Shown here: piece by piece, positions 1 to 16,616 of the stretch
Layout: each line of letters starts with the position of its first letter
How positions within the stretch are numbered: the first letter of the stretch is position 1
Virus genome (UHGV): UHGV-0224311
DNA length: 16,616 nt
Origin: a virus
Reading direction: 5' to 3' (one strand)
The notes under the pieces: generated by a model
Seen by the model: the letters and a program-made list of their open reading frames with translations, nothing else
Database searches by the model: none
Told to the model about the DNA's origin: nothing
Program-made: the position numbers and the translations under genes

Positions 1-286
1 TCTCGCGGCAAAGGAACAAGGCATCGGGGCAATCCTTGCGTTTGCAATGGCGTACCTTCGCGGCAGATATAATGGCGGTGCGTTTACAAAAACAGTAATC
101 GACGCAACGATGTGCGCCATTATCGCCTGGTTCATTCGTGACCTTCTCGACTTCGCCGGACTAAGTAGCAATCTCGCTTATATAACGAGCGTGTTCATCG
201 GCTACATCGGTACTGACTCGATTGGTTCGCTTATCAAACGCTTCGCTGCTAAAAAAGCCGGAGTAGAAGATGGTGGAAATCAATAA
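1..286 (+). CDS. S: Lambda-type class I holin S, 5'-truncated by the window edge
   Basis: Reading frame is open from position 2 and translates [48 protein letters not shown]..., which I recognise as near-identical to the C-terminal part of lambda S. The listed ORF 47..286 starts at an internal Met; the true start lies upstream of the window. The stop overlaps the start of R. Confidence 0.9.
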
Positions 287-746
287 TCAACGTAAGGCGT
301 TCCTCGATATGCTGGCGTGGTCAGAGGGAACTGATAACGGACGACAGAAAACCAGAAATCATGGTTATGACGTCATTGTTGGCGGAGAGCTATTCACTGA
401 TTACTCCGATCACCCTCGCAAGCTTGTCACGCTAAACCCCAAACTCAAATCAACAGCCGCCGGGCGTTACCAGCTTCTTTCCCGTTGGTGGGATGCCTAT
501 CGTAAGCAGCTTGGCCTGAAAGACTTCTCTCCGAAAAGCCAGGACGCTGTGGCACTGCAACAGATTAAAGAACGTGGCGCTTTACCGATGATTGATCGCG
601 GTGATATTCGTCAGGCAATTGACCGTTGCAGCAATATCTGGGCTTCACTTCCGGGCGCTGGTTATGGTCAGTTCGAGCATAAGGCTGACAGCCTGATTGC
701 AAAATTCAAAGAGGCAGGCGGAACGGTCAGAGAGATTGAGGTATGA
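270..746 (+). CDS. R: Endolysin, lambda R-type lytic transglycosylase
   Basis: The 158-aa product ([35 protein letters not shown]...) is recognised as essentially lambda R. It overlaps S at its start and Rz at its end (ATGA at 743-746). Confidence 0.93.
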
Positions 747-1523: not shown

Positions 1524-2009
1524 ATGAATAACTTTGTTGAAATTACCTCAAGAATTGGTCGCATGTACCAAGATTTTCTTATAAGTGGAAAGGGGTCTGG
1601 CGACATCATAGAGGAAATTGACAAGCTAAGTGCAGAGCTGAGAAGGAATGGGTGTGTTAATTCTATCTTTTTTGAAACGTTGCTAAAGCAAGGCTTCATG
1701 TTTGACATGATTAATTACAACAAAGTCGCACCCAGTGCTTCGCAAAAATCATATGTGTACGTTCTGCATGCTGAAGATAGTGGGCTAACAAAAATAGGGT
1801 TTAGTCGCAGGGTTAATAAACGGATTTCAGAGATATCTCGCATGAGTGGTGGGAAGCTAAATCTAATTGCAAAGATTCCGGCCGATAGAGAGCTTGAAAC
1901 CAAATTGCACCAAAAATATTACAACTATAGGTCGCACGGGGAGTGGTTTAGTCTCAATCGTTGTCATTTGAAAGAGCTAAAAGAAATGCCTGGTAACGAA
2001 CTGAAATAA
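1524..2009 (+). CDS. Accessory (moron) protein of 161 aa: N-terminal region of unknown function plus C-terminal T5orf172 / GIY-YIG-like predicted nuclease domain
   Basis: ATG at 1524 with AAAGG 8 nt upstream. The C-terminal half carries YVYVLHAEDSGLTKIGFSRRVNKRISEISR ... KLHQKYYNYRSHGEWFSL, which fits the T5orf172 (GIY-YIG-like) pattern as I recall it (YVYVL...KIG...R...E...H...GEWF). The gene is visibly AT-rich with frequent AGA/AGG/ATA codons, unlike its neighbours. Confidence 0.7.
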   Translation: MNNFVEITSRIGRMYQDFLISGKGSGDIIEEIDKLSAELRRNGCVNSIFFETLLKQGFMFDMINYNKVAPSASQKSYVYVLHAEDSGLTKIGFSRRVNKRISEISRMSGGKLNLIAKIPADRELETKLHQKYYNYRSHGEWFSLNRCHLKELKEMPGNELK

Positions 2010-4512: not shown

Positions 4513-5013
4513 TTACGGCTTGAGAAATTCAGAGGCAGCGGAATTCAGAGCGTTAATAAATGCTACCTTATGCTTGTATGCATCTAATGCTGTAGCGAAT
4601 CCGCTTTTTGTGTATTTCTTGCCTTCTACCACAAATTGCCACATGTAGTTATTTGTGTCCTTGCGATAGGAAACTCCTTTGTATCCAGTTGAATTGTCGC
4701 AATCCATGCCACGGTTTAGTCCGTTCAACTGCTTATTGGCATCTCTAAGATTACAGATGCGGTTATCAGCACGGTTTCCGTTTATGTGATCTACTGCTTC
4801 GGGCCAGTAACCATAGTAGTGCGCAAAACAAATTCTGTGCACGTAGTACAGTTTTTTACCAAGCCTTACATCAAGGTATCCGTTTCCATGCTGGCACCCA
4901 ACGGGCTTGCCGTTAAGGTCTGTCCTCCTTGTGCGATTAGCCGCGTACAAAATTCCGGTTTCAGCATCGTATGTGAAATTTTTCCTTATATCTTCTATAG
5001 ATGGATGGCTCAC
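4513..5013 (-). CDS. Free-standing HNH homing endonuclease with C-terminal AP2-type DNA-binding domain
   Basis: Minus-strand ORF of 166 aa with a GTG start at 5013 preceded by AGGAG. It carries an HNH motif (HRICFAHYYGYWPEAVDHINGNRADNRICNLR) and an AP2-like segment (GYKGVSYRKDTNNYMWQFVVEGKKYTKSGFATALDAYKHKV). The gene is AT-rich and antisense to the operon, placed between terL and portal. Confidence 0.85.
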   Translation of the reverse strand: MSHPSIEDIRKNFTYDAETGILYAANRTRRTDLNGKPVGCQHGNGYLDVRLGKKLYYVHRICFAHYYGYWPEAVDHINGNRADNRICNLRDANKQLNGLNRGMDCDNSTGYKGVSYRKDTNNYMWQFVVEGKKYTKSGFATALDAYKHKVAFINALNSAASEFLKP

Positions 5014-9495: not shown

Positions 9496-10095
9496 ATGAG
9501 CGTAATGATTTTTCAGGCTGGCGGAGATACCAAAATCTGGGGACGCAAACTGAAAACGAAAACCGTTGATCCTGATGATGTAGCTGTGCACTTAGCAAAT
9601 GGCTGGTATAAGCACCCTGACGATGTTCCTGATGATCCTCTTGTTGGTGATCAAATTGGGAGTGTTGGCGGAGGTGAAACTTCCCCAGTTGATATGGGCG
9701 AAGTGTCCGACGGTTATCACACTTTTAACGAGCTTTACGCTCACCGAGTGCGCCTCTTCTCATCGCTGATGCATGCTTACGCTGAGCTTTCGTGGTGGTC
9801 TCGCAAACACAGTGACGGTGAAGAGTGGGATGGCTGGATCATTGCTGGTATCACCACTCCAGAAGGCGAAATCACTTATCACCTACCTGTTGAAGAAATC
9901 GAGTTCCTTCCTGAAGGTACTGAGCTTGAGTTCGGGAAAGAGTGGGATGGTCATGAAGCAAATGATGTTCTTGGACGACTCCTGAGTTTGCGTCCGGCTA
10001 TTGCAGAGCCAGAGCCAGAGCCAGAAGAAAAACAGCGTAAAAAGCCTGGTCGAAAACCTAAGGCGGCAGCAGATGAACCTGACAACGAAGGGTGA
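9496..10095 (+). CDS. Hypothetical acidic protein of 199 aa inserted between coat and gp4; function unknown
   Basis: ATG at 9496 preceded by GGAGA (9486-9490). The listed ORF start at 9316 would overlap the coat gene and its terminator, so it is rejected. The product is Asp/Glu-rich with a Trp-rich core ([32 protein letters not shown]) and a C-terminal [20 protein letters not shown] tail. Its 3' end overlaps the gp4 start by 23 nt. Confidence 0.65.
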
Positions 10096-10573
10096 TTTAG
10101 TCCTTGCGGCATTACGTAAGCTCGGTGTGGCATCAAATGCCACGTTAACAGATGTCGAACCGCAGTCTATGGAAGACGGCGTCAACGACCTTGAAATGAT
10201 GATGGCTGAATGGCTTGGCGGTGATGCGTCACCTGGTATCAACGTTGGCTACATTTTTGCTGATGCAGATGTTGCTCCGGATCCGGGCGATGAGCACGGC
10301 TTATCAAATAACGCTATCAATGCCGTCATTTTCAACCTTGCCTGCCGCATTGCACCGGATTATGCGCTGGAAGCGCCTGCAAAACTTATAACCACTGCCA
10401 GATACGGGAAAGAGCGACTCGTCAAACTGTCTGCAATGGACAGAGCAAAAGCCGCTAAATGTAAGTCCGGTTATCCAAACCGTATGCCTGTTGGTAGCGG
10501 TAACCAGTTGGCGAAGTGGAACGGTTGGAATTACTTCCACCGAAAGGAACCTTGCGATAACGGGAGCGAATAA
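10073..10573 (+). CDS. 4: Head completion / tail accessory protein, P22 gp4-type
   Basis: Starting at the ATG at 10073 gives a 166-aa product beginning [33 protein letters not shown], recognised as gp4-like. The listed ORF start at 10001 is an upstream in-frame extension. Confidence 0.88.
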
Positions 10574-13296: not shown

Positions 13297-13989
13297 ATGT
13301 TATATGCATTTAAGCTGGGCAGAAAACTGCGCGGCGAGGAACCTTATTGCCCTGAAAAGGGTGGGAAAGGTGGCAGTTCTGATAAAAGCGCAAAGTATGC
13401 CGCAGAAGCTCAGAAGTATGCAGCAGACCTGCAAAATCAGCAGTGGCAGACGATCATGAAAAACCTTGCTCCGTTCACGCCTCTTGCGGAGCAGTATGTT
13501 AACCAGTTGCAGAATCTTTCCAGTTTAGAAGGTCAGGGGCAGGCACTTAATCAGTATTACAACTCTCAGCAGTATAAAGACCTTGCAGGTCAGGCGCGTT
13601 ACCAGAGTCTTGCTGCTGCGGAGGCGACGGGTGGACTTGGTTCGACAGCCACAAGCAATCAACTGGCTACGATCGCGCCGACACTCGGTCAGTCTTGGTT
13701 ATCAAACCAGATGAGCAATTACAACAATCTGGCAAACGTTGGGCTTGGTGCGCTGCAAGGTCAGGCAAACGCCGGGCAGACGTACGCCAACAACATGAGC
13801 AGCATTGCACAGCAAAGCGCAGCTCTTGCCGCTGCTAATGCCAATAAACCATCAAGTCTTCAGACTGCAATTAGCGGTGGCACGTCTGGTGCGATTGCCG
13901 GTGCAGGTCTTGCCAGCCTTTTGGGAACATCAACGCCTTGGGGCGCTGGCATTGGTGCTGGTATCGGATTGCTTGGCTCGTTGTTTTAA
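13297..13989 (+). CDS. 7: Ejection (injection) protein, P22 gp7-type
   Basis: The 230-aa product starts MLYAFKLGRKLRGEEPYCPEKGGKGGSSDKSAKYAAEAQKYAADLQNQQ, is Gln/Ala-rich in the middle, and ends in a Gly/Ala-rich hydrophobic C-terminus. It sits first in the ejection-gene trio. Confidence 0.8.
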   Translation: MLYAFKLGRKLRGEEPYCPEKGGKGGSSDKSAKYAAEAQKYAADLQNQQWQTIMKNLAPFTPLAEQYVNQLQNLSSLEGQGQALNQYYNSQQYKDLAGQARYQSLAAAEATGGLGSTATSNQLATIAPTLGQSWLSNQMSNYNNLANVGLGALQGQANAGQTYANNMSSIAQQSAALAAANANKPSSLQTAISGGTSGAIAGAGLASLLGTSTPWGAGIGAGIGLLGSLF

Positions 13990-13998
13990 GGGGTAATC

Positions 13999-15330
13999 AT
14001 GGCTACTTGGCAAGGAACAAACGGCGGATTGTTGGCTGGTATCGGCGGCGTCAACTCAAACGCTCCGAGCGTAAATGACATCGGCAATACGCTTCAGCTT
14101 ATCAGGCAGAACAATGATATTGAGCGTTCAGGCGCTAACAATGTTGGGCTGACTGCTTTGCAAGGTCTTTCAGGTATTGCGGGTGTTTTTCAGCAGGAAA
14201 AGCAGGCTCAGCGGCAGAAAGAATTTCAGCAGGCGTACGCTAATGCTTATGCGTCTGGTGATCGCGGTGCTTTGCGTCAGTTGGCTACTCAATATCCAGA
14301 CCAGATTGAATCCGTTCGTAAAGGCATGGGATTCATTGATGAAGAGCAGCGTAATTCTATCGGCACCTTAGCGGCTGGCGCACGCCTTGCGTCATCGTCT
14401 CCAGAAGCAATGCAATCATGGCTGCAAAACAACGCCGGTGAGTTAGCTCGTGTTGGCGTTAATCCTCATGACGTCGCTCAGATGTACCAACAGAACCCGC
14501 GGCAGTTCGGCGAATTTGTCGATCACCTGGGGATGAACAGTCTCGGGCCCGAAAAATACTTTGACCTACAGGATAAAATGCAGGGTCGCCAGGTTACCAT
14601 GCGCGGTCAGGATCTGGATTCGCAAACCGCCGCTCGGAATCAGGCAATCACAATGCGCGGACAAGATATCCAGGCGAATTTAGGTCAGCAGCGCATTAAT
14701 CTGGACGCAGAAACAAACCGCATTAACAACGAAAATAAGCGCCTTGACCGGATGCTATCAGCAGAAACTAACGACCTGAAGCGCCAGGAAATACAGAGCC
14801 GCATAGCAGCCAACAACCAGCAGTTGCAGCAGAATCAGCAAGCGCTAAATGATGGCTACAAAGACGGCATCAACACCCTCACAACCAGCATGTTCACTCT
14901 GAACGATATCGTTAGTTCTCCTTCACTTAAGAGCATTACAGGCTTACGTGGAGTAATCCCCAACGTTCCAGGCTCACAGGCTGCAGACACTCAGGCACGA
15001 CTTGATACCTTTAAATCACAAGCATTCCTGACAGCGGTTCAGGCCATGCGAGGCATGGGCGCACTTTCTGATGCCGAGGGCAAAAAGCTCGACCAGGCTG
15101 TTGGTTCGCTGCAGAACTCGCAGAGCGAGGAGTCCTTTCGTCGCAACGCTGGCGTCATCCTGAACACGCTCAACCAGAAGCGTAATGAGGCGGTTGGTAA
15201 GTACGTTCAGCAAAACGGTATCAAGCGAGTGGAAGCGCCTCAGGCTTCTATAGATTACCTGAAGCAGCACCCCGAGCTGTCAATCGACTTCATTAATCGC
15301 TACGGATATCTTCCATCTTTGGGGCAGTAA
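13999..15330 (+). CDS. 20: Ejection (injection) protein, P22 gp20-type
   Basis: The 443-aa product is Gln/Asn-rich with predicted coiled-coil segments. RBS AAGGGG upstream; second in the ejection-gene trio. Confidence 0.78.
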   Translation: MATWQGTNGGLLAGIGGVNSNAPSVNDIGNTLQLIRQNNDIERSGANNVGLTALQGLSGIAGVFQQEKQAQRQKEFQQAYANAYASGDRGALRQLATQYPDQIESVRKGMGFIDEEQRNSIGTLAAGARLASSSPEAMQSWLQNNAGELARVGVNPHDVAQMYQQNPRQFGEFVDHLGMNSLGPEKYFDLQDKMQGRQVTMRGQDLDSQTAARNQAITMRGQDIQANLGQQRINLDAETNRINNENKRLDRMLSAETNDLKRQEIQSRIAANNQQLQQNQQALNDGYKDGINTLTTSMFTLNDIVSSPSLKSITGLRGVIPNVPGSQAADTQARLDTFKSQAFLTAVQAMRGMGALSDAEGKKLDQAVGSLQNSQSEESFRRNAGVILNTLNQKRNEAVGKYVQQNGIKRVEAPQASIDYLKQHPELSIDFINRYGYLPSLGQ

Positions 15331-16616
15331 ATGGCTAATTACCGTGATTTGTTAGAGCAGGCTGGCGCACGTTACGGTGTGCCAGAAGGGTTGATGACTG
15401 CACTGGGTGCCAAGGAGTCTTCTTACAACCCTGCCGCAGTAAGCTCCGCCGGGGCTGTAGGATTGACTCAGGTCATGCCTGGGACATGGCGTGATATGGG
15501 TTATACCGATGAGCAAATGCAAAACCCCGAATATCAGGCTGACGCTGGCGCACGCTATCTGGCAAAGATGTACCAGCAGTTTGGTAACTGGCGTGACGCT
15601 CTTCAGGCTTATCACGACGGTCCAGGCAACGTTATGAAGGCAAAGCGTGGTGAATATACGCCAGGACCTGAAGGCCGCGGTTACGTTGATGATCGCTTTG
15701 CTCAATGGGCGGGTGACCCGGTGACAGACTCAACAGTCGAACAGCGCGCCACCTCTGCAAAGGTACATCCTCAGCAAGACCCTAACAACCCGTTTGCACA
15801 ACTGGAAGCACAGTCATCCGAACAAGTATCGGCATCAGGCGTGCAGTCAGACCCAAATAATCCATTTGCTCAGATTGAGCAGCAGGCAGCCAGTCAGCAG
15901 CCGCCTCAACCCGTAAGTTCTGTCGCACCGAAACCTGTTCAGCAGCAAGGCGGAATAATGTCTGACCTTGGTAATGGACTTGCTGAAACCGGGCGCGGCT
16001 TACTACAGGCAGGAATCAACGTAGCGAACATACCTGCTGAACTCACTGATGCTGTAACAAGCGCGGCGGCTTGGGCTGGCGGTAAACTCGGTATTGGCGA
16101 TGGTACATATCAACCAGCACCACGAGTAACAACGCAGGGATTAGAGCAGGACTTTGGCCTTAAGCAAGGCGCGCTGACTCCACAAACGACAGAGGGAAGG
16201 GTATTTGCTGAAGCATTGCCTTACCTCACTCCCGCTGGCATTGAGAGAGCGGCAACACAGGCACCAACACTTGCTGGTCGAATTGCTCAGGGGGCAACTC
16301 GCCTTCTAGCAGAAAACGCAGTTGGATCACTTGCTGCAAATAGTGCGAAAGATGATGCGGAAGCACTCGCCACCGATTTAGGCGTTGGTGTACTTGCTGG
16401 CGGTGCTATTAACGCTGCCGGACGTGGATTAGGTGCTGCTTATCGTGGCGTTCGTGGTGCTATCGCGCCAGAAGCGCAGCAGGCTATCAGATTTGCAGAG
16501 CGTGAAGGAGTTCCTCTGCACACCACAGACCTGTTACAGCCTACTTCCCGCGTCGGGAAATTGGCGCAGACGACAGCGGAAAATATCCCCCTAGCTGGCA
16601 CAAGCGGAATGAGAGC
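15331..16616 (+). CDS. 16: Ejection protein in the gp16 position with N-terminal SLT lytic transglycosylase domain; 3'-truncated by the window edge
   Basis: ATG at 15331 directly follows the preceding stop. The N-terminal ~110 residues carry SLT-domain motifs (KESSYNP with the catalytic Glu-Ser, GLTQVMPGTW, AYHDGPGN). The reading frame stays open to the end of the window. Confidence 0.75.
   Translation, partial: MANYRDLLEQAGARYGVPEGLMTALGAKESSYNPAAVSSAGAVGLTQVMPGTWRDMGYTDEQMQNPEYQADAGARYLAKMYQQFGNWRDALQAYHDGPGNVMKAKRGEYTPGPEGRGYVDDRFAQWAGDPVTDSTVEQRATSAKVHPQQDPNNPFAQLEAQSSEQVSASGVQSDPNNPFAQIEQQAASQQPPQPVSSVAPKPVQQQGGIMSDLGNGLAETGRGLLQAGINVANIPAELTDAVTSAAAWAGGKLGIGDGTYQPAPRVTTQGLEQDFGLKQGALTPQTTEGRVFAEALPYLTPAGIERAATQAPTLAGRIAQGATRLLAENAVGSLAANSAKDDAEALATDLGVGVLAGGAINAAGRGLGAAYRGVRGAIAPEAQQAIRFAEREGVPLHTTDLLQPTSRVGKLAQTTAENIPLAGTSGMR

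What the first reader, a model, noticed from the sequence alone, without database searches (positions are those of the whole stretch)
15331..15900. SLT lytic transglycosylase domain and a duplicated DPNNPFAQ peptide at the start of the last ejection protein
The N-terminal ~110 residues carry the SLT motifs ES, GLTQVM and AYHDG, so this virion ejection protein probably cuts peptidoglycan locally during genome delivery. I do not recall whether the canonical P22 gp16 has such a domain, so this may be a distinct ejection-protein type. Downstream, the peptide DPNNPFAQ(L/I)EQQ occurs twice, 72 bp apart (about 15778-15813 and 15850-15885). The two copies differ largely at synonymous positions, which argues for selection on the peptide rather than a recent DNA duplication.
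Basis: partly seen in the sequence, partly recalled or inferred. Interest (0 to 1): 0.55.

Follow-up and report, generated by a model that had tools for sequence, protein, structure and literature searches.

The report
Peptidoglycan-cutting head on phage ejection protein
The last of the three proteins that this P22-like phage shoots into the cell carries a swappable front end, made of a cell-wall-cutting enzyme domain followed by two copies of a short, strongly conserved peptide; the enzyme part is already annotated in databases, while the peptide pair appears undescribed and its partner is unknown.

Summary
The ORF starting at 15331 is the third ejection protein of an IME10-like P22-like phage and runs off the window end. 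Residues 7-110 match Pfam SLT (E=1.5e-25). Glu29 aligns with the catalytic Glu478 of E. coli Slt70 and is invariant in 76 homologues. DPNNPFAQLEAQ (15778-15813) and DPNNPFAQIEQQ (15850-15885) differ by 7 synonymous-only codons and 2 replacements.

New here:
- Residues 1-207 form a mosaic cassette joined to at least three different gp16 bodies (Sf6-, Sf101- and HK620-type). It is always inherited with the C-terminal part of gp20.
- The peptide is a conserved linear motif, N-x-F-[A/D]-[Q/E]-hydrophobic. Every complete SLT-headed relative examined has exactly two copies. P22-like prophages carry both after the SLT domain. Sortsne-, Murray-, Skarpretter-, Hungariovirus and Kosakonia phages carry one at the extreme N-terminus and one after it.
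- Across eight diverged lineages the motif codons show 212 synonymous against 36 replacement differences. The rest of the linker shows 194 against 531.

The likely function is local peptidoglycan cleavage during DNA delivery, as for T7 gp16. The motifs are probably docking peptides, but the partner is unknown and a link to the T7 "tape" failed a statistical test. The SLT domain is already annotated (Sf101, PGAP). Interest is moderate.

The parts
15331..16616 (+). 5' part (428 codons) of the third ejection-protein gene (gp16 position). It is truncated by the window end; the full length in the near-identical phage IME10 is 797 aa.
   Evidence: Translation. 98.4% nt identity to IME10. 797-aa ORF in L001. 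Synteny behind gp7 and gp20.
15331..15711 (+). SLT lytic transglycosylase domain, aa 1-127 (Pfam match aa 7-110 = 15349-15660).
   Evidence: PF01464 E=1.5e-25. AF2 pLDDT 91-98 over aa 1-110, with helices to aa 127. Foldseek top hits are Slt70, LtgA, Slt, MltE, MltC and MltF; T7 ejectosome chain 7k5c_B at E=9.5e-4.
15415..15417 (+). Codon of Glu29, the predicted catalytic acid (E-S motif).
   Evidence: Aligns with Glu478 of Slt70, counted from the HMMER alignment. Invariant in the 11-sequence alignment that includes T7 gp16 and in 76 homologues.
15712..15951 (+). Q/P/S-rich linker, aa 128-207, predicted largely disordered. It carries the two motif copies and ends at the recombination joint with the body.
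   Evidence: pLDDT 52-71. Similarity to Sf6 resumes at 15943. An exhaustive phmmer search finds this linker only in its own family.
15778..15813 (+). Motif copy 1, DPNNPFAQLEAQ (aa 150-161).
   Evidence: Conserved as DP[NDS]NPFAQ[LIV]E in 8 diverged lineages. AF2 places a short helix at 154-163 with low confidence.
15850..15885 (+). Motif copy 2, DPNNPFAQIEQQ (aa 174-185).
   Evidence: AF2 places a short helix at 178-187 with low confidence.
15952..16616 (+). Start of the Sf6-type gp16 body (aa 208-428 within the window).
   Evidence: IME10 aa 208-797 is 97% identical to Sf6 gp13 aa 76-665. There is no Pfam family and no PDB sequence relative for this part.
14536..15942 (+). Mosaic cassette relative to Sf6. 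It comprises the C-terminal ~265 codons of gene 20 plus the SLT/motif head of gene 16, inherited as one block.
   Evidence: blastn of window against Sf6: 94.9% identity up to 14535, 91.8% from 15943, and essentially nothing between. The gp20 C-tail type tracks the gp16 head type.
13999..15330 (+). gp20-like ejection protein (Inj_translocase). Its C-terminal tail ...IDFINRYGYLPSLGQ is specific to SLT-headed systems.
   Evidence: Pfam. Tail comparison.

Best explanation
The gene is the third ejection (E) protein of a P22-like (Lederbergvirus, IME10-like) phage, and it is a chimera. Residues 1-207 form an exchangeable head. The head consists of a family-1 SLT lytic transglycosylase domain with catalytic Glu29, followed by an ~80-residue flexible Q/P/S-rich linker that carries two copies of a conserved short linear motif (core N-x-F-[A/D]-[Q/E]-hydrophobic, here DPNNPFAQ[L/I]E). 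From residue 208 onward it is an ordinary Sf6-type gp16 body.

Inferred mechanism: the protein is packaged in the capsid and expelled through the tail at infection. The SLT head then cuts glycan strands locally, so that the gp20 tube and gp16 can reach and cross the inner membrane. This is the role shown for the SLT head of T7 gp16.

The two motifs are most likely docking peptides, short helices that fold on binding. They would tether the head to another component of the ejection machine. The preferred candidate is the gp20 tube, whose C-terminal half always travels with this head.

Shown here: domain identity, conservation of the catalytic residue, the mosaic structure, purifying selection on the motif, and the two-copy rule. 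Inferred only: enzymatic activity, the timing of action, and the binding partner.
For: SLT domain:
- Pfam E=1.5e-25.
- Glu29 aligns with Slt70 Glu478 and is invariant, including in T7 gp16.
- The AF2 model is confident, and Foldseek hits are all lytic transglycosylases plus the T7 ejectosome chain 7k5c_B.

E-protein identity:
- The gene follows P22_gp7 and Inj_translocase genes.
- The body is 97% identical to Sf6 gp13.

Cassette:
- An identical head (aa 1-206) is joined to a different body in Sf101.
- It is joined to three body types in IMG/VR: 33 Sf6-type, 6 Sf101-type and 3 HK620-type.
- The DNA breakpoints against Sf6 lie at 14535 and 15943.

Motif:
- Exactly two copies occur in every complete relative, with different placement in temperate and virulent lineages.
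- Motif codons show 212 synonymous against 36 replacement differences; the linker shows 194 against 531.
- No other protein of the window carries the motif.

gp20 link:
- A YG[YF]LP tail accompanies all SLT heads except those of the Kosakonia phages and L076, and an SLWGD tail accompanies all 80 Sf6-type heads.
- There are 0 mixed junctions against at least 120 native ones in IMG/VR.

Precedent: the T7 gp16 SLT head is followed by a segment (residues 157-228) that binds gp15 (review PMC8954989).
Against: - No activity data exist.
- P22-like virions already have a reported muralytic protein, gp4 (review PMC5380687). A gp4 homologue is present at 10001-10573, so the SLT head may be dispensable, as it is absent from P22 and Sf6.
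- A position-specific score matrix (PSSM) built from the motif does not find the T7 tape (best T7 hit 3.2 bits, shuffle p=0.95).
- The motif variant does not co-vary with the gp20 tail variant. Kc259 shares NPFAQF with the window but has a different tail.
- Co-inheritance of the gp20 3' end and the gene-16 5' end could be plain physical linkage, because the two are adjacent.
- AF2 gives only low confidence for the motif helices.
Confidence: 0.6

Rival explanations
1. The motifs are capsid-incorporation signals. They would bind scaffold, portal or another procapsid component so that the protein is packaged, in the manner of the N-terminal capsid-targeting sequence of T4 internal proteins. They would play no role after ejection.
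For: In the virulent relatives one copy sits at the very N-terminus, directly after Met-Ala (MANVFDQFDQ...), which is where targeting peptides usually sit. The motif is independent of the body type. The T4 precedent comes from general knowledge and was not tested here.
Against: Sf6 gp13 has the same body at 97% identity and similar virion proteins, yet is packaged without any such motif. In the window protein neither copy is N-terminal. No motif-like sequence occurs in the other E-proteins, which must also be packaged.
Confidence: 0.15
2. The motifs bind a host envelope protein or peptidoglycan-associated factor in the periplasm, positioning the enzyme or hijacking a host machine. This would resemble the way disordered colicin N-termini carry TolB or TolA boxes. 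The NNPF of the window recalls the NNPW of the colicin E9 TolB box, but that comparison is from memory.
For: The motif lies in a disordered linker, is bivalent, and is under strong purifying selection. All hosts of the family are Enterobacterales or close relatives.
Against: The NNP part is not conserved in relatives (GGNVFDQF, SGNFFDQF), so the resemblance to the colicin box does not extend to the family. No partner is identified. P22 and Sf6 infect the same hosts without the motif.
Confidence: 0.1
3. The repeat is a functionless leftover of a tandem duplication within a low-complexity linker.
For: The linker is compositionally biased. The 24-residue units share a few residues outside the motif.
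Against: Seven of 12 codons differ only synonymously. Across lineages the motif is nearly invariant while the spacer diverges (212/36 against 194/531). The same motif recurs at non-homologous positions in distant relatives.
Confidence: 0.03
4. The SLT domain is not used for entry. It would be either catalytically dead ballast or would act late, for example by helping lysis.
For: P22 and Sf6 do without it. Truncated copies exist in prophages (151-576 aa).
Against: All catalytic-site motifs are intact and invariant. The phage has its own holin, endolysin and Rz cassette at 47-1180. The domain is fused to a virion ejection protein, and T7 provides a tested precedent for a role in entry.
Confidence: 0.07

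Closest known systems
Phage T7 gp16 (internal virion protein D)
   Same: It is the third gene of the ejection triad. It has an N-terminal SLT lytic transglycosylase with a catalytic Glu (E37 in T7, E29 here), followed by an extended segment. The fold match to 7k5c_B has E=9.5e-4. The enzyme is ejected into the periplasm (PMC8954989).
   Different: Identity over the SLT domain is only 22-28%. There is no similarity in the remaining ~1100 residues. A PSSM scan with the motif does not detect the T7 'molecular tape' (p=0.95). The body here is P22/Sf6-type.
Sf6 gp13 and P22 gp16 (canonical P22-like third ejection proteins)
   Same: They occupy the same gene position. Sf6 gp13 aa 76-665 is 97% identical to the body. 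The gene sits in the same virion gene cluster.
   Different: Their N-terminal 60-75 residues are unrelated and carry no enzyme domain: MAKAWKD... in Sf6 and HK620, MKVTANG... in P22, with no Pfam hit. Their gp20 ends in ...SLWGD (Sf6, HK620) or ...IKFTVE (P22) rather than ...YGYLPSLGQ.
Sf101 gp13 'transglycosylase'; IME10, Huey, Dewey, APC_JM3.2 and phiKp_30 homologues; E. coli prophage 'lytic transglycosylase domain-containing protein'
   Same: The head is identical (aa 1-183, 100%). In IME10 the whole protein is nearly identical. The head is present in 70 of 5426 complete E. coli genomes.
   Different: Sf101, Huey and Dewey join the head to a different 911-aa body. None of these records mentions the motif pair. 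The IME10 record does not annotate the gene at all.
Third ejection proteins of Sortsnevirus, Murrayvirus, Skarprettervirus, Hungariovirus and Kosakonia phages (~1000 aa, annotated 'transglycosylase' or 'DNA transfer protein')
   Same: They share the SLT head at 50-63% identity, the same gene order, the same motif in two copies, and, except in the Kosakonia phages, a gp20 tail ending in YG[YF]LPEG[LI].
   Different: One motif copy is at the extreme N-terminus and one lies after the SLT domain, instead of both after it. The linkers are longer, the bodies are different, and the phages are virulent.
E. coli Slt70 catalytic domain (PDB 1QSA/1QTE)
   Same: It is the best solved relative by sequence (E=4.8e-10) and by fold. 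The E-S, G-L-x-Q and A-Y-N/H-x-G motifs align.
   Different: It is a cellular periplasmic enzyme with a large superhelical U-domain, and it has no ejection-protein context.

Membership tests
SLT / GH23 family-1 lytic transglycosylase domain (Pfam PF01464) | Profile match above the curated threshold | tested here: met
   89.5 bits against a cut-off of 21.3, E=1.5e-25, aa 7-110.
SLT / GH23 family-1 lytic transglycosylase domain (Pfam PF01464) | Catalytic Glu in the E-S motif, at the position of Slt70 Glu478 | tested here: met
   KESSYNP aligns with QESAWNP of Slt70. E29 and S30 are invariant in 76 sequences.
SLT / GH23 family-1 lytic transglycosylase domain (Pfam PF01464) | Lysozyme-like all-alpha fold | tested here: met
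   AF2 pLDDT above 90 over aa 1-110. All of the top 50 Foldseek PDB hits are lytic transglycosylases.
SLT / GH23 family-1 lytic transglycosylase domain (Pfam PF01464) | Muralytic activity producing 1,6-anhydro-muropeptides | not testable with these tools
   Requires a zymogram or HPLC of digestion products.
P22-like ejection protein gp16 (Sf6 gp13 type) | Third gene after the gp7 and gp20 homologues in the late operon, upstream of the tailspike | tested here: met
   gp7 at 13297-13989, gp20 at 13999-15330, and this ORF from 15331. The tailspike follows in IME10.
P22-like ejection protein gp16 (Sf6 gp13 type) | Sequence homology of the body to Sf6 gp13 | tested here: met
   97% identity over 590 aa via IME10. 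Window DNA is 91.8% identical to Sf6 from 15943 onward.
P22-like ejection protein gp16 (Sf6 gp13 type) | Presence in virions and release at infection | not testable with these tools
   Inferred from the Sf6/P22 homology only.
T7 gp16 family (internal virion protein D) | N-terminal SLT domain on the third ejection protein | tested here: met
T7 gp16 family (internal virion protein D) | Post-SLT 'molecular tape' (T7 residues 157-228) that binds the gp15 tube | tested here: inconclusive
   BLAST extends through this region in some T7-likes (PNEPFAK against PNNPFAQ). However, a motif PSSM finds nothing in T7 (p=0.95). Binding was not testable.
T7 gp16 family (internal virion protein D) | Homologous ~1100-residue C-terminal part | tested here: not met
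   tblastn matches to T7-like phages cover only aa 2-181 at most. There is no PDB sequence hit outside the SLT domain.

The most novel reading that the evidence does not exclude
The N-x-F-[A/D]-[Q/E]-hydrophobic peptide would be a previously unrecognised docking motif of podovirus ejection proteins. Two copies per chain would clamp the enzyme head onto the hexameric gp20 periplasmic tube, or onto a host envelope protein. The head-plus-gp20-C-terminus block would be a co-adapted interaction module that phages exchange as a unit. If true, this would give the first sequence-level handle on how P22-like E-proteins recognise each other.
Probability: 0.3. Interest if true: 0.6.

Novelty: new variant of a known kind. 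Interest (0 to 1): 0.4.

Why it matters
[quoted passage not shown] This window, together with about 1% of complete E. coli genomes, shows that a subset of P22-like phages does carry it, as an exchangeable head.

That offers a natural experiment. The same gp16 body exists with an SLT head (IME10) and without one (Sf6). This makes it possible to test what a virion-borne wall-cutting enzyme contributes to infection.

The strictly conserved two-copy motif, and its co-inheritance with the C-terminal part of gp20, give concrete residues to mutate when mapping how the trans-envelope conduit of P22-like phages assembles. No structure of that assembly is available. Practically, the 127-residue SLT head is a compact candidate virion-associated lysin.

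Tried and rejected
1. Homology of the linker to the T7 gp16 'molecular tape'. By eye, T7 AKPFAKDFWE and Klebsiella T7-like APNTPYAKDFWE resemble DPNNPFAQ, and BLAST extended through the region. An unbiased PSSM from 23 motif instances scored the T7 site below noise (best hit elsewhere at 3.2 bits; p=0.95 for the full length and 0.35 for aa 141-300). I keep it only as an analogy.

2. The DNA-level tandem repeat. TRF finds nothing at score 30, and the repeat finder lists only chance-level pairs.

3. Whether the linker or motif is attached to other heads elsewhere. An exhaustive phmmer search of aa 128-207 against 1.84 billion representatives returned only its own family, plus four unrelated repetitive proteins.

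4. Direct co-variation between motif variant and gp20 tail variant. None was seen.

5. AF2 of a gp20-C/gp16-N fusion to probe docking.

6. Literature search for the motif strings. It returned only irrelevant hits. Casjens & Thuman-Commike 2011 and Swanson 2021 are not held. I therefore cannot exclude that the SLT-headed gp16 type was described there.

7. The species-representative genome scan gave only 3 loci (E. coli, Shigella flexneri and one MAG phage contig). The head therefore seems confined to Escherichia/Shigella prophages and a group of virulent enterobacterial podophages.

8. The colicin TolB-box resemblance (NNPW against NNPF) was rejected as a family feature, because relatives lack the NNP.

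Full report
**What the window is.** The 16.6-kb window is the late operon of a P22-like phage.
- The gene order is holin, lambda-R-like endolysin, Rz, small and large terminase, portal, scaffold, coat, gp4, gp10, an Sf6-type needle (gp26), gp14, gp7, gp20, and then the ORF in question.
- The last 3.4 kb is 98.4% identical to Enterobacteria phage IME10 (Lederbergvirus).
- gp7 (13297-13989) matches Pfam P22_gp7, and gp20 (13999-15330) matches Inj_translocase.
- The ORF at 15331 therefore occupies the position of P22 gene 16, the third ejection protein. It runs off the window end after 428 codons. In IME10 the same ORF is 797 aa long and is not annotated in the record.

**Checking the observation.**
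- The translation shows KESSYNP (E29), GLTQVM and AYHDG.
- Pfam SLT matches aa 7-110 at E=1.5e-25.
- The best solved relative by sequence is E. coli Slt70. The HMMER alignment places E29 opposite the catalytic Glu478.
- E29 is invariant in an alignment that includes T7 gp16 and in 76 database homologues.
- An AlphaFold2 model is confident over aa 1-110 (pLDDT 91-98). Its structural neighbours in the PDB are all lytic transglycosylases, led by Slt70, with the T7 ejectosome chain 7k5c_B also significant.
- The two peptides lie at 15778-15813 (DPNNPFAQLEAQ) and 15850-15885 (DPNNPFAQIEQQ).
- Of the 12 codons, 3 are identical, 7 differ only synonymously and 2 are replacements.
- No DNA tandem repeat is detectable.
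- No 8-residue exact repeat arose in 5000 shuffles of the product.

**A mosaic head.** Comparison with relatives shows that the protein is a chimera.
- IME10 aa 208-797 is 97% identical to Sf6 gp13 aa 76-665. The first 207 residues have no counterpart in Sf6, whose 75-residue N-terminus (MAKAWKDV...) is unrelated and carries no enzyme domain.
- Sf101 has the identical head (aa 1-206) on a quite different 911-aa body.
- In IMG/VR the head is joined to Sf6-type (33 loci), Sf101-type (6) and HK620-type (3) bodies.
- P22 gp16 and Sf6 gp13 have no Pfam domain at all.
- At the DNA level the window matches Sf6 up to 14535 and again from 15943. The divergent block therefore contains the C-terminal ~265 codons of gene 20 plus the head of gene 16.

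**The repeated peptide is a family-wide motif.**
- The next tier of relatives has a head 50-63% identical. These are the ~1000-aa third ejection proteins of the virulent Sortsne-, Murray-, Skarpretter- and Hungarioviruses and of the Kosakonia phages. They share the gp10-gp26-gp14-gp7-gp20 gene order.
- Each carries the motif N-x-F-[A/D]-[Q/E]-[F/Y/L/I] exactly twice. One copy lies directly after Met-Ala at the N-terminus, for example MANVFDQFDQ or MANPFAQFADP. The other lies about 40 residues after the SLT domain, for example GGNVFDQFGDY or SNNPFAQFSDG.
- Two apparent exceptions simply use GTG starts.
- Hungariovirus has a one-residue-shifted variant, again present twice.
- In the P22-like prophage lineage the N-terminal copy is missing and a second copy lies 24 residues downstream of the first.
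- In eight diverged members of that lineage (72-94% identical heads) both copies and their spacing are kept while the spacer changes.
- Pairwise codon differences are 212 synonymous against 36 replacement in the motif columns. In the rest of the 60-residue stretch they are 194 against 531.
- A motif matrix finds no comparable site in any other protein of the window.
The number of copies appears to matter more than their placement.

**What the motif might bind.**
- AF2 predicts short helices starting at the Pro-Phe of each copy (154-163 and 178-187). Confidence is low (pLDDT 52-59) and there is no confident packing on the SLT domain. That pattern is typical of a peptide that folds on binding a partner.
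- The attractive analogy is T7. There, gp16 residues 157-228, just after the SLT domain, act as a 'molecular tape' that binds gp15 and stabilises the periplasmic tunnel (PMC8954989; PMC13128918).
- T7-like proteins have a conserved P-N-x-P-[FY]-A-K-D-F-W-E in that segment, and BLAST aligned it with the window motif. However, an unbiased matrix built from 23 motif instances scores nothing in T7 above noise (p=0.95). I therefore treat homology as unsupported and keep only the functional analogy.
- Independent, indirect support for a gp20 link comes from co-inheritance:
  - All ~50 P22-like loci with the SLT head have a gp20 ending ...NRYGYLP[SP][LI]G[QG].
  - The virulent relatives end ...[KW][YFA]G[YF]LPEG[LI]. 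The Kosakonia phages and the related IMG/VR locus L076 are the exception.
  - Sf6, HK620 and all 80 sampled loci with the MAKAWKD head have a gp20 ending ...FSSLWGD, even where the preceding gp20 sequence differs.
  - Degenerate-pattern scans of 2.9 million viral contigs found no junction combining one tail type with the other head type. The native Sf6-type junction was found at least 120 times.
- Two cautions apply. The two segments are adjacent in the DNA, so linkage alone could explain the co-inheritance. The motif variant also does not track the tail variant, since Kc259 has NPFAQF but a different tail. The partner therefore remains open.
- Genetic work in P22 hybrids shows that gp16 and gp20 must come from the same phage to function (PMC10461980). 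This is compatible with a co-adapted module.

**How it most likely works.**
- Shown: an intact SLT active site sits on a protein whose body is an established virion ejection protein.
- Inferred: the head is expelled into the periplasm and cleaves glycan strands locally, easing passage of the conduit. This is the role demonstrated for T7 gp16, which matters mainly when the wall is highly cross-linked.
- P22 virions are reported to carry a different muralytic protein, gp4 (PMC5380687). The window encodes a gp4 homologue. The SLT head is therefore probably an accessory that improves entry under some conditions, not an essential part. That fits its presence in only a minority of P22-like phages: about 50 loci with the SLT head against 403 with the Sf6 head in IMG/VR, and 70 of 5426 complete E. 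coli genomes.

**Comparison with what is known, and novelty.**
- The SLT domain is already annotated: 'transglycosylase' in Sf101 and 'lytic transglycosylase domain-containing protein' by PGAP. That part is not new.
- It does contradict the generalisation in a 2022 review that the transglycosylase function is absent from P22-like phages.
- The protein is a member of the SLT domain family and of the Sf6-type gp16 family. It works like T7 gp16 but is not a member of that family, because there is no similarity beyond the SLT domain.
- I could not find the following described: the two-copy linear motif, its alternative placements, the strength of selection on it, and the head-plus-gp20-C-terminus cassette. 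The key comparative paper on P22-like virion genes is not in the library.
- Overall this is a new variant of a known kind and is of moderate interest. The value lies in the clean natural comparison (same body with or without the head) and in a short, mutable motif that may report on how the conduit assembles.

Noticed in passing
window 4513-5013 (- strand): A 166-aa HNH_3 endonuclease ORF lies on the opposite strand, wedged between the large terminase and portal genes. These genes are adjacent in P22, so this is probably a homing-endonuclease insertion.
   Followed up: partly
window 1524-2009: A 161-aa ORF with MUG113/T5orf172 (GIY-YIG-like) domains lies between the lysis cassette and the terminase genes.
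   Followed up: partly
window 9496-10095: A 199-aa WDGH-domain ORF is inserted between the coat gene and gp4. Its C-terminus overlaps the start of the gp4 ORF as listed.
   Followed up: partly
window 15328-15333: The TAA of gene 20 is followed immediately, and in the same reading frame, by the ATG of the SLT gene. IME279, Lumpael and C130_2 have the same geometry, whereas Sf6, Skarpretter and Kc166B overlap by 1 nt. This is therefore not a conserved read-through arrangement.
   Followed up: partly
window 15697-15708 (aa 123-126): A third F-A-Q-W element (RFAQW; RF[A/D/N][Q/E][W/F] in all relatives) closes the last helix of the SLT domain. It resembles the core of the repeated motif (PFAQL/PFAQI). 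This may hint at the origin of the motif or at a helix-mimicry mechanism.
   Followed up: no
L001 5632-8025 (IME10, NC_019501): The 797-aa gene-16 ORF is not annotated in the IME10 records. In Kosakonia phage Kc166B the gene is split into 310-aa and 734-aa ORFs (L004). The Sortsne record annotates fragments although one 1015-aa ORF is open (L013).
   Followed up: partly
L063 (IMG/VR), protein aa ~188-295: One lineage carries an extra ~105-residue segment inserted right after motif copy 2 ([29 protein letters not shown]...) before the Q/P linker resumes. It has no Pfam match. The linker can evidently host additional cargo.
   Followed up: partly
L015 (T7 gp16 aa 1-9) against L006/L010 aa 1-13: T7-like gp16 N-termini (MDKYDKNVP) resemble the second half of the N-terminal motif of Sortsne/Murray-type proteins (MANIFDQFDQNMP). 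This is suggestive of a shared N-terminal peptide upstream of the SLT domain, but it was not tested statistically.
   Followed up: no
L003, L008 and L167-L246 (gp20 C-termini): The Sf6/HK620-type gp20 always ends in [N/G]FSSLWGD, even when the preceding 20 residues differ. It is always followed by the MAKAWKD-type gp16 head. This is a second tail/head pairing parallel to the SLT one.
   Followed up: partly
window 270-746: The 158-aa endolysin looks like the lambda R transglycosylase (identification from memory) but gave no Pfam hit at E<=1e-3. If it is R-like, the phage encodes two unrelated lytic transglycosylases, one for exit and one for entry.
   Followed up: no
L066, L055, L038, L047/L048 (IMG/VR): Truncated versions of the SLT-headed gene (151, 293, 569 and 576 aa) occur in several prophage-derived contigs, consistent with decay in defective prophages.
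   Followed up: no
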